In this document: positions 27,001 through 30,000 of the stretch, in pieces
Position numbering within the stretch: the stretch's first letter is position 1
Layout: each line of letters begins with the position of its first letter
IMG/VR virus record: IMGVR_UViG_2630968414_000007
DNA: 50,105 bases
Origin: a virus
Lineage: Duplodnaviria; Heunggongvirae; Uroviricota; Caudoviricetes
Direction: 5' to 3' (one strand)
Made by a program: the position numbers

Positions 27001-30000
27001 GTGAGCCCCGCTTTCCACCATTTCAGGAGGGTGTTCAAAGATCACCGGCAGAAAGTGCGGATCATGAATTTTGCCGTCGCGCACATCCCGGGCGTACTGC
27101 AGTTTCTGTCTGAACACCCCGGCGGGAGGTTCATTCGACTGGGTGGTCGTATACACCACAAACCCTTCCGGGCGGGAGGCAAGGCCACCGATGGCTTCAC
27201 GTAACATGTCCTCCGCCTTGTACTGCTTGCCAAACAGCCACAGCTCATCAATCAGCGTACCCACGGACTTGATACCGGACACCGTATTCGGATCGGCTGC
27301 CACCACCTTCAGGGTGGTGTCTGTCACCCGGTGGGTGATGGTCCGGATATGTGTCTGCACCTGACAGAGGTCATCCAGATCATCGTCCCGTCGTACCATA
27401 TCCCTGGCAGGGTTGAAGGCGTTGGCTGCCACCTCCACTGTCGGGGCCAGAATCGTGTAGCCCGCCGCCTGCCGCCAGTTCAGTAACAGTGCAGTCATCA
27501 TGATCCCTGCGGCCAGCGTGGACTTCGAGTTTTTCTTGGGGATAAGGATAAAAACTTCCTTGATATGGCGAACACCGGTCTGCGCATCGTAGGAGCCAAA
27601 CAGGGCCGCCACCAGGTCAAACACCCACGGTGCACAGGACTCCCCGAACGTCGGGCTACCCGGTGCATCCACAATCCGCAGTTGTTTAAAAATCGCCAGT
27701 GCATGTGCAGCCTGGTCCGGATAAATCGGAGCCGGAATAATCGACAGCCCCTTTTTCAGGCGCTCTGCCCAGTCCGGGCAGGCAGTGCTCCATACAGGTA
27801 TCATCCGTTGCCCTCATTATCGTTATTCACCACCAGTCGGGGTGGCGGTGGCACCGCAAAACGGTTAGCCGCTTTTTTCGCGGCATCACCTTTTGCCGAT
27901 TTTTTACCGGCATCGCCTTTTTTGTGGTGCGTGAACTGCGCCAGTCTCATCAGCCGCATCCAGCGCCAGTTCTGGGTCGGTAATTATCAGGTTTCTCCAC
28001 CAGAGATCTGCCCCATCAGCTTTCACCGGATCGGGAAGACCATCCTCCATATATCTCAATACCAGGAGATATCACCACGGGCGGTAGGCATCTCCGGATT
28101 GTTTTCGTCCGGCTGTGGTATTGCAGCCAGCCTCACGGCGACGGGGTTTATCCTCCTGCTCTGATTTTTTCTGCCGGTAAACAGGAACCTCATCCACCTC
28201 CACCGTCTTCGCATTGTTTACGGGCTATAAACGCAAGCACCTCCAGGATCTTTTGCCAGCTGCGAGCCTTTAACCCTGGCGGTCTTCGCCGAATAACCGG
28301 CGGCAATGGCTGACGCTGTTTTGTTTTTCCCGGACATGAGCGCCAGCGCAAATTTTCGTTTTTGCGTTGTCAGCACAGCCTCCTCCCGGGTCCAGAACGC
28401 ACTCAGCCGGGTATGGTTCAGCCCATTTTTCCCGGCGATCTCATGCCGCAAATGTTAACTGCTGCCTGGTTAACATTTGCTGAAAAAGCCAGTTAACATT
28501 TTTTCCGCACAACAAACTGAATAATAAAGATAAAAACCGCAAAAATGCCCGGACAGCCAGTTAACATGTTAACTGCCCTGAAACGGGAATTTTTTCTCTG
28601 CGTGAGAGGGGGCGCGGTGTCCAGGGCGATCGTTTTTTTTCGCCGGATGATCCCCCCCGGGTCTGGTCACAGGCCAGTGATTCCGTCGGCCCTGAGCGTG
28701 CCATCAGGAAGCTCAGGCAACGTCGGATCAGGCATACCACCCGCCGCTTCACTCGCTGACTTCTGGCGATGGCATTCAGTACAGAGGGTCCAGAGGTTCG
28801 TCTCCTCATTACCACCACCGAACTGAAGTGCAATGCGGTGATCGAGTTCACTGTCACAAAGGTCAACCACGCGTCTACAGAGACAACAGTGTCCGGCATC
28901 CCTCCGCCAGATACGACGTTTGAGGGAAACCCGGGCACTGCCACTGACACGACGCTGTTCCCCCCTCAGGACATTTATCCGCCGGGTGTTCAGAGTTTTG
29001 ATTCTGCCCGGTAACGTACGAAGCACAGCCATGTAAAATCCTCGCCATATAGCTTGTCACCAGAGGAAAGAAAATGTCATCGAAAAACCGGCCCCGCAGA
29101 ACAACAACCCGCAACATCCGATTTCCAAACCAGATGATTGAACAAATTAACATCGCTCTTGACCAGAAAGGTTCAGAAAATTTTTCTGCGTGGGTCATTG
29201 AATCTTGCCGCCGGGAGCTGGCAGCAGACATAAAATATGCCCGTCAGTTGACTATAAAAAAGAATGATACACAGTATGCTCTGCGATGGCTGTTCATATA
29301 ACTATTTCTTTATATTGCTGAATTTATAAAAACTCACAGACATTAGCTGTATTAATTCCGAATTGAAATAATCAGCCATATAGAATAAAAATAAAGCATA
29401 ACAATAATAATCTTCTACCCAATCAGTACATTACTGCTGTGACTCCAACACGGCAGTTTTTTTATTGAACAGATTCCAGTTTCTTCCACCATCGCACCGG
29501 ACGGGCGACCATGAGGGGAGAACGCCGCGCTCCGTTTACGCGGTAAACCCCGGTGTGTATCGTTTTTGATTATCCCCGCACACTCTCGCAGAGGAGTCTC
29601 CCTGTCGGGCTGCGGTCTCTGTTAATGCAGGAATACGGCGACGATACGGCGCATCAGCAAAACTTAGTTCAGGCACTGAGTGCGGATATAGTCCTGTGCC
29701 CCTTCCAGCTGCTTCTGCATTGTCATCAACCGTTCTCTGAGGATGAAATAATCCCGTTCAGCGGTGTCTGCCAGTCGGGGGCCGGTTGCATTATCCACGC
29801 CGGAGGTGCCGGTGGCTTCACGCACGGTACCGGAGCAGGTGGCGTTGATCCGCAGGCGCTTACGACCAGCGGCAACATCAGCACGCAGAGTTTCATTTTC
29901 AGCTCTCGCATCGGCTAACTCCCTCGAGTATTTTGCATCGAGCGCAGCAACATCACGCTGGCGCACCTGCATGTCAGTAATGGTGGCATTCGCCTGTTCC

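What the first reader, a model, noticed from the sequence alone, without database searches (positions are those of the whole stretch)
27805..28451. Terminase small subunit reads as protein in four or five different frames
After the 77-aa N-terminal ORF, protein-like peptides continue in shifted frames (NAKTVEVDEVPVYRQKKSEQEDKPRRREAGCNTTAGRK..., ADGADLWWRNLIITDPELALDAADETGAVHAPQK..., then a Lys-rich tail ...KKGDAGKKSAKGDAAKKAANRFAVPPPPRLVVNNDNEGNG). If real, the prophage cannot package DNA; if an artefact, this region has several indel errors.
Basis: seen in the sequence. Interest (0 to 1): 0.45.

Follow-up and report, generated by a model that had tools for sequence, protein, structure and literature searches.

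The report
Garbled terminase gene: draft-assembly artefact
The "multi-frame" terminase small subunit is not a broken gene: it is a consensus error in a 2016 PacBio draft of E. coli O157:H7 C1-057, where two near-identical prophage copies were blended, and the finished genome of the same strain has the gene intact.

Summary
On the minus strand, between the HNH endonuclease and the large terminase, terminase-small-subunit (TerS) peptides continue across repeatedly shifting frames. It is an assembly artefact, not biology.

The window comes from contig LAZO01000001.1, the 2016 PacBio RSII/HGAP2 draft of E. coli O157:H7 C1-057. The same strain was later finished as NZ_CP035366.1. There the orthologous prophage (2.17 Mb, "B") has an uninterrupted 187-aa TerS. 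A second prophage (1.72 Mb, "A") matches B for about 6.4 kb and 3.8 kb on either side, except for 40 SNPs in a 511-bp island over terS.

The garbling sits exactly on that island:
- 13 SNP sites carry allele A only.
- 13 carry allele B only.
- 14 carry both alleles side by side, which creates the extra bases.
- Only 3 edits stay unexplained, against a mean of 12.4 (minimum 10) in 600 random-indel simulations.

None of 5,426 complete E. coli genomes or 50,697 phage records exceeds 97.5% identity to the garbled version. Interest is low.

The parts
27801..28376 (-). The terS-equivalent stretch (GTG start at 28376, TGA stop at 27803..27801, overlapping the TerL ATG). It is 576 nt here against 564 nt (187 aa) in intact copies. 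The reading frame changes about 16 times.
   Evidence: RefSeq CDS of the intact copies; three-frame translation. (PF03592 Terminase_2).
27915..28438 (.). The blended island. It contains all 40 SNP positions that distinguish prophage A (1.72 Mb) from prophage B (2.17 Mb) of the finished C1-057 chromosome. The window carries A only at 13 sites, B only at 13, and both alleles in tandem at 14 (7 in A-then-B order, 7 in B-then-A order).
28218..28451 (-). The 77-aa 'N-terminal ORF'. Residues 26-69 are the true TerS N-terminus. Residues 1-25 are leader sequence fused in frame by the doubled T/C at 28437-28438. The ORF ends after the doubled T/G at 28244-28243.
26143..27804 (-). Terminase large subunit, 553 aa, intact. 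It matches the prophage A/B allele (W = B at all 61 sites informative between prophages C and B from 26869 to 27915).
   Evidence: PF03354 and PF20441.
28667..29032 (-). HNH endonuclease, 121 aa, intact. It is the first gene of the HNH-TerS-TerL packaging module.
   Evidence: PF01844.
28448..28576 (.). Five GTTAAC-core motifs (CAGTTAACAT / ATGTTAACTG, in both orientations) in the spacer between the HNH gene and terS. The spacer is the same in prophages A and B; phage YYZ-2008 differs at one base. It is not affected by the artefact.

Best explanation
The multi-frame terS is a consensus artefact of a draft long-read assembly. The window is part of LAZO01000001.1, the 2016 draft of E. coli O157:H7 strain C1-057. 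It was made with PacBio RSII, C2 chemistry, one SMRT cell and HGAP2/Quiver.

The strain carries several near-identical lambdoid prophages. Two of them, A at 1.72 Mb and B at 2.17 Mb of the finished chromosome, are identical for about 6.4 kb on one side of terS and 3.8 kb on the other. They differ at 40 SNPs in a 511-bp island covering terS and its leader.

In the draft, reads or corrected reads from both copies were piled onto one locus. At each SNP the consensus kept allele A, allele B, or both in adjacent columns. The 14 doubled sites add the extra bases that scramble the frame. The real gene at this locus is an intact 187-aa TerS.

Shown: the provenance of the window, the intact gene in the finished genome of the same strain, and the exact coincidence of the extra bases with paralogue SNPs and alternate alleles.

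Inferred: that the cause is paralogue read mixing or repeat collapse, and which software step split the alleles into adjacent columns.
For: (1) Provenance. The 52-aa truncated product is on record in a single assembly, GCA_000986635.1 contig LAZO01000001.1. That locus is base-for-base window 25218-31376. LAZO01 is the C1-057 draft (PMC4777751). Its authors later replaced it with the gapless CP035366.1 after further sequencing (PMC8046923).

(2) Same strain, intact gene. Window 20000-40000 against the orthologous finished locus shows 29 differing alignment columns, 27 of them within 27924-28438. The finished locus encodes the 187-aa TerS WP_001303051.1.

(3) Signature. Alleles A and B align without gaps and differ at 40 sites, all inside the garbled stretch. 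The window shows A only at 13 sites, B only at 13, both in tandem at 14, and has 3 residual edits.

(4) Control. 300 simulated A/B mosaics with 13 random insertions and 300 with 13 base duplications needed a mean of 12.4 unexplained edits (minimum 10). None reached 3 or fewer.

(5) The flanks where A equals B are clean. A third prophage, C, has the A-type island but differs in the flanks, and it contributes nothing there: W = B at all 61 and 62 flanking informative sites. So the mixing partner is A.

(6) Uniqueness. The best identity among 5,426 complete E. coli genomes is 97.5%, and among 50,697 phage records 97.2%. Intact copies occur in more than 1,200 genomes.

(7) The draft shows other assembly damage. 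Contig 1 is 4.83 Mb against a 5.45-Mb finished chromosome. The window itself joins prophage C to prophage B across a 7.1-kb identical stretch. There are two homopolymer indels elsewhere in the window.

(8) Precedent. Collapsed repeats have given clusters of substitutions and indels in an E. coli draft before (PMC4134206).
Against: No raw reads were available, so the mixing itself is inferred, not seen.

My simple pair-HMM maximum-likelihood consensus on simulated 50:50 read mixtures did not reproduce allele doubling at nominal CLR error rates (insertion 10%, deletion 4%, substitution 1%). It did so only with deletion at 8% and a modelled substitution rate of 0.3% (6 of 32 trials). The responsible software step (pre-assembly DAG consensus, Celera-type multi-alignment consensus, or Quiver) is therefore not established.

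I could not check whether prophage A is separately present in the draft.

Three edits in the densest SNP clusters are not explained by the strict column model.
Confidence: 0.96

Rival explanations
1. Genuine pseudogene: the prophage's terS has decayed through many small insertions, so the prophage cannot package DNA.
For: The ORF is truly interrupted in the deposited sequence. O157 prophages do carry real pseudogenes: gpJ and the prophage-A portal are flagged as frameshifted even in the finished genome.
Against: The finished genome of the same strain has the gene intact at the same locus. The changes are almost all insertions. Each falls on a paralogue SNP and equals the alternate allele, which decay does not predict (0 of 600 simulations). 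No other genome or phage record carries this version. It would require 27 differing positions in 515 bp against 2 in the other 19.5 kb.
Confidence: 0.01
2. Ordinary random long-read indel noise (homopolymer or low-coverage errors), unrelated to paralogous copies.
For: The draft does contain such errors elsewhere in the window: G5 to G4 at 21410 and C9 to C10 at 35557.
Against: Reported coverage was above 100x. Errors are about 25 times denser in the island than outside it. 14 of the extra bases sit on SNP sites with the alternate allele. There are also 26 clean allele choices, split 13 to 13. Random-insertion and duplication models fail.
Confidence: 0.01
3. The sequenced culture was truly heterogeneous at this locus, for example through gene conversion of terS between prophages A and B in part of the population, or a mix of inversion isomers. 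The mixed reads would then come from one locus rather than from mis-recruited paralogue reads. The deposited consensus would still be an artefact.
For: Recombination between O157 prophages is well known; PMC8046923 cites Iguchi 2006 on this. The window joins prophage C to prophage B, which are in inverted orientation in the finished genome. That could be a real inversion isomer.
Against: It is not needed. Identical flanks of 6.4 and 3.8 kb, reads from a 3-20 kb library, and a draft contig 0.6 Mb shorter than the finished chromosome explain the mixing more simply. The finished assembly resolves pure A and pure B alleles.
Confidence: 0.03
4. Programmed ribosomal frameshifting or another recoding mechanism produces TerS from several frames.
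For: None beyond the fact that peptides continue in shifted frames.
Against: About 16 shifts would be needed. More than 1,200 homologous loci encode a single ORF. The shifts are absent from the same strain's finished genome.
Confidence: 0.001

Closest known systems
Collapsed or mixed-repeat consensus errors in draft bacterial assemblies, such as the E. coli EC958 454 draft, where a 3.7-kb repeat shared by GI-leuX and GI-selC gave '11 substitutions/4 indels' (PMC4134206)
   Same: A tight cluster of substitutions and indels confined to the part of a multi-copy element where the copies differ. It was resolved by a better assembly of the same strain.
   Different: The platform here is PacBio CLR with HGAP2/Quiver rather than 454. 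The signature is unusually clean: both alleles retained in tandem at 14 of 40 SNP sites, with insertions almost exclusively.
Terminase small subunit of HK97-like or Stx-phage-type packaging modules (Pfam PF03592 Terminase_2). Examples: phage YYZ-2008 gp50 (YP_002274186.1), WP_001303051.1, WP_000958387.1
   Same: Same gene, same position between the HNH endonuclease and TerL. Phage YYZ-2008 matches allele B at every position of the aligned 540-nt stretch that covers the island.
   Different: The window copy is 12 nt longer and out of frame. This reflects the sequence record, not the organism.
Genuine prophage pseudogenes of E. coli O157:H7 (for example the frameshifted portal of prophage A and gpJ in NZ_CP035366.1)
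   Same: Interrupted phage morphogenesis ORFs inside lambdoid prophages.
   Different: Those persist in the finished genome and involve one or a few lesions. The terS lesions vanish in the finished genome and track paralogue SNPs.

Membership tests
Terminase small subunit (Pfam PF03592 Terminase_2) | Sequence match to the family profile above the gathering score | tested here: met
   intact alleles A and B score 35.7 and 35.9 bits (cut-off 26.1). The window's 52-aa N-terminal fragment scores 30.6 bits.
Terminase small subunit (Pfam PF03592 Terminase_2) | Position immediately upstream of, and overlapping, the large terminase gene in a packaging module | tested here: met
   gene order HNH - terS - terL, with the terS stop overlapping the terL ATG (ATGA at 27804-27801).
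Genuine pseudogene (decayed prophage gene) | The disruption exists in the organism's DNA and is reproducible in independent sequencing of the same strain | tested here: not met
   the finished genome of the same strain (CP035366.1) has an intact 187-aa ORF at the orthologous locus.
Genuine pseudogene (decayed prophage gene) | Lesions independent of sequence variation in paralogous copies | tested here: not met
   14 doubled sites coincide with A/B SNPs and carry the alternate allele. 0 of 600 random-indel simulations come close.
Paralogue-mixing or collapsed-repeat consensus artefact | Errors confined to positions where two copies in the same genome differ, with clean sequence where they are identical | tested here: met
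   all 40 A/B SNPs lie within 27915-28438. Outside the island the window differs from the finished copy B at only two positions in 20000-40000: a G5-to-G4 length error at 21410, where A also differs from B, and a C9-to-C10 error at 35557.
Paralogue-mixing or collapsed-repeat consensus artefact | Every base of the aberrant consensus is attributable to one or other copy | tested here: met
   13 sites A, 13 sites B, 14 sites both, and only 3 residual edits in the densest SNP clusters.
Paralogue-mixing or collapsed-repeat consensus artefact | Read pile-up at the locus contains two haplotypes, with roughly doubled coverage if the repeat is collapsed | not testable with these tools
Programmed frameshift | The frame change is conserved in homologues and sits at a slippery site | tested here: not met
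   homologues encode a single ORF, and the shifts are unique to this record.

The most novel reading that the evidence does not exclude
The doubled-allele scars are real DNA in some cells of the culture. They would be the product of an unknown recombination or repair process between paralogous prophages that retains both strands' bases at mismatches in a heteroduplex. The finished assembly would then have sampled or favoured the undamaged molecules.
Probability: 0.005. Interest if true: 0.7.

Novelty: not a real feature. Interest (0 to 1): 0.04.

Why it matters
It carries no biological weight: the prophage's terS is intact, so nothing can be concluded here about packaging competence.

It has practical value as a quality flag. 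Contig LAZO01000001.1 (GCA_000986635.1) contains blended and chimeric prophage sequence, and it should not be used for calling pseudogenes or typing prophages in strain C1-057. CP035366.1 should be used instead.

The signature is also a simple, reusable diagnostic for separating paralogue-mixing artefacts from genuine gene decay in multi-prophage genomes. It consists of insertions that each equal the alternate allele of a paralogue SNP, confined to the only divergent island inside a long identical repeat.

Tried and rejected
(1) A permissive "template-switch" parse, allowing local jumps of up to 3 nt between alleles A and B, explained the window perfectly with 25 switches. Controls showed it had no discriminating power: 40% of random-insertion mosaics and 97% of base-duplication mosaics also parsed. 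I discarded it for the strict column model. One control run timed out.

(2) Exact 51-mer searches for the garbled sequence found nothing in GTDB representative genomes or in IMG/VR. The 77-aa TTG-start product is not on record; the 52-aa GTG-start product is.

(3) I considered prophage C (1.76-1.81 Mb) as the mixing partner, because the left part of the window is prophage C. I rejected it: C differs from B at 123 flanking sites and the window is pure B at all of them.

(4) I tried to reproduce allele doubling with a pair-HMM maximum-likelihood consensus on simulated 50:50 CLR reads. No doubling occurred at nominal error rates. It appeared only with deletion at 8% and a modelled substitution rate of 0.3%. 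The Quiver-type likelihood explanation is therefore unproven.

(5) Literature searches for a published description of this exact doubling signature found only general precedents for collapsed-repeat errors.

Full report
**Observation**

- a 77-aa ORF (28218..28451);
- peptides in other frames (28072..28203 and 27904..28059);
- a Lys-rich C-terminal piece ending ...NNDNEGNG (27801..27959).

The stretch lies between an HNH endonuclease (28667..29032) and a 553-aa large terminase (26143..27804). Both are intact and confirmed by Pfam. The N-terminal fragment passes the gathering score of PF03592 Terminase_2. So the gene identity and the frame changes are real features of this sequence record.

**Comparison with intact copies**

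A 1-kb query found the region in 1,281 of 5,426 complete E. coli genomes and in 94 phage records. These are mostly O157:H7 strains and Stx-converting phages, annotated HNH / terminase small subunit / terminase large subunit. No hit exceeded 97.5% identity, and every full-length match listed spans 981-988 bases against about 1,000 bases of query.

An alignment with two intact copies showed perfect identity in the flanks. All differences fell between roughly 27915 and 28438, and the window carried extra single bases but almost no deletions. At many of these sites the window had both bases of a SNP that distinguishes the two intact copies. For example, GAGA[T/C]GCC becomes GAGATCGCC and GAGG[C/T]GGC becomes GAGGCTGGC.

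**Provenance**

Window 20000-40000 matches E. coli O157:H7 C1-057 (NZ_CP035366.1, 2,167,002-2,186,989) at 99.9%. Of 29 differing alignment columns, 27 lie in 27924-28438.

An exact-product look-up of the truncated 52-aa TerS fragment found it in one assembly only, GCA_000986635.1 contig LAZO01000001.1. That locus is identical to window 25218-31376.

LAZO01 is the 2016 draft genome of strain C1-057. It was made with PacBio RSII, C2 chemistry, one SMRT cell, a 3-20 kb library and HGAP2/Quiver (PMC4777751). The same group later reported that "further sequencing" gave a "complete, gapless chromosome", CP035366.1 (PMC8046923).

The window and the best-matching finished genome are therefore the same strain. 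In the finished genome the orthologous locus encodes an uninterrupted 187-aa TerS, WP_001303051.1.

**What the garbling is made of**

The finished chromosome has at least three related prophages:
- A at 1.70-1.75 Mb;
- C at 1.76-1.81 Mb;
- B at 2.145-2.195 Mb, the orthologous locus.

A and B align without gaps over the 988-bp region and differ at 40 positions, all within the garbled stretch. Outside it they are identical from window 21474 to 27915 and from 28438 to 32247.

I used a strict column model. Each A/B column may emit allele A, allele B, or both in either order; anything else costs one edit. Under this model the window reads:

| Outcome | Sites |
|---|---|
| Allele A only | 13 |
| Allele B only | 13 |
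| Both alleles in tandem (7 A-then-B, 7 B-then-A) | 14 |
| Residual unexplained edits (in the two densest SNP clusters) | 3 |

The net extra bases are 14 + 1 - 2 = 13, the observed length excess. Twelve of them fall inside the CDS, so the first 44 and last ~48 codons share a frame.

As a control I took random A/B mosaics and added either 13 random insertions or 13 base duplications. These needed a mean of 12.4 unexplained edits (minimum 10). None of 600 reached 3 or fewer.

An earlier, looser template-switch parse had no discriminating power and is not used as evidence.

**Which copy was mixed in**

Prophage C carries the same island sequence as A, but it differs from B at 61 sites in terL (26869-27915) and 62 sites upstream of terS (28505-29196). 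The window is pure B at all 123 sites. Reads from C therefore did not contribute. The partner is A, whose flanks are identical to B and so cannot be told apart by reads that do not reach beyond about 6.4 kb on one side or 3.8 kb on the other.

**Other signs of assembly trouble in the window**

- Window 1-14500 is 100% identical to prophage C (1,795,367-1,809,866, minus strand).
- The window follows C at 97 of 98 informative sites up to 19749, then follows B from 26869 onward. The switch lies in a 7.1-kb stretch where C and B are identical.
- C and B are in inverted orientation in the finished chromosome. The draft join is therefore either a chimeric misassembly or an inversion isomer.
- Draft contig 1 is 4.83 Mb against 5.45 Mb finished.
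- There are two isolated homopolymer errors: G5 to G4 at 21410, which alters the portal C-terminus, and C9 to C10 at 35557.

**Mechanism, and what is not shown**

Shown:
- the extra bases are alternate alleles of paralogue SNPs;
- the real locus is intact;
- the garbled version exists in no other record.

Inferred: long noisy reads, or corrected reads, from A and B were aligned together. In indel-tolerant multiple alignments the two alleles of a SNP can occupy adjacent columns, each with about half bases and half gaps. A near-tie majority call then keeps one, the other, or both. The 13:13:14 split fits near-ties at roughly equal representation of the two copies.

I tried to reproduce the doubling with a simple pair-HMM maximum-likelihood consensus on simulated 50:50 reads. 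It did not appear at nominal CLR error rates. It appeared only with deletion at 8% and a modelled substitution rate of 0.3% (6 of 32 trials). I therefore cannot say whether the pre-assembly DAG consensus, the Celera consensus or Quiver is responsible. That needs the raw reads.

A published precedent exists for the general phenomenon of clusters of substitutions and indels where a repeat was collapsed in an E. coli draft (PMC4134206).

**Comparison with known things, and verdict**

The gene is an ordinary member of the Terminase_2 small-terminase family in an HNH-TerS-TerL module. Phage YYZ-2008 matches allele B at every position of the aligned 540-nt stretch that covers the island.

The "multi-frame" state fails the defining test of a pseudogene, which is reproducibility in the organism's DNA. 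It also fails the test for programmed frameshifting, which is conservation in homologues. It meets the testable criteria for a paralogue-mixing consensus artefact.

Nothing novel remains. The finding is not a real biological feature, and its only value is as a warning about this draft record and as a clean diagnostic signature for such artefacts.

Noticed in passing
window 1-19749 versus 26869-50105: The draft contig is chimeric relative to the finished chromosome of the same strain. The left part equals the prophage at 1.76-1.81 Mb (100% over 1-14500). The right part equals the prophage at 2.145-2.195 Mb. The switch lies inside a 7.1-kb stretch identical in both. The two prophages are inverted relative to each other, so this is either a misassembly or a real prophage-mediated inversion isomer.
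   Followed up: partly
window 21410 (portal gene, ORF 21300..23930, minus strand): A G5 run in the finished genome (prophages B and C) is G4 in the window. This shifts the last ~25 codons of the portal gene, giving an 876-aa ORF against 861 aa. It is probably another draft consensus error, and it sits at a spot where prophage A also differs.
   Followed up: partly
window 35548-35557: A C10 homopolymer where the finished genome has C9, near the prophage tRNA cluster. It looks like a typical long-read homopolymer length error.
   Followed up: partly
window 28448-28576: Five GTTAAC-core motifs (CAGTTAACAT / ATGTTAACTG) in both orientations, forming several 10-13-nt inverted repeats, in the ~215-nt spacer between the HNH gene and terS. 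The spacer is the same in prophages A and B (phage YYZ-2008 differs at one base). It could be a cos or TerS-binding array, or an operator.
   Followed up: partly
window 21811-22403: A tandem repeat of 162 bp x 3.7 copies (97% matches) inside the portal gene, meaning 54-aa repeats in the protein.
   Followed up: no
L001/L006 versus L003/L005 (finished genome), equivalent to window 27915-28438: Natural mosaicism. Prophages A and B are identical for more than 10 kb except for a 511-bp island with 40 SNPs (12 amino-acid changes) in terS, although they share the same TerL protein (WP_024748457.1). The island looks like a short recombination patch. Prophage C has the A-type TerS with a different TerL allele.
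   Followed up: partly
L006 28828-31412 and 40345-43817; L005 11382-14860: Even in the finished C1-057 genome, the portal of prophage A and gpJ of prophages A and B are annotated as frameshifted. That assembly is PacBio-only, so some of these could also be residual consensus errors rather than real pseudogenes.
   Followed up: no
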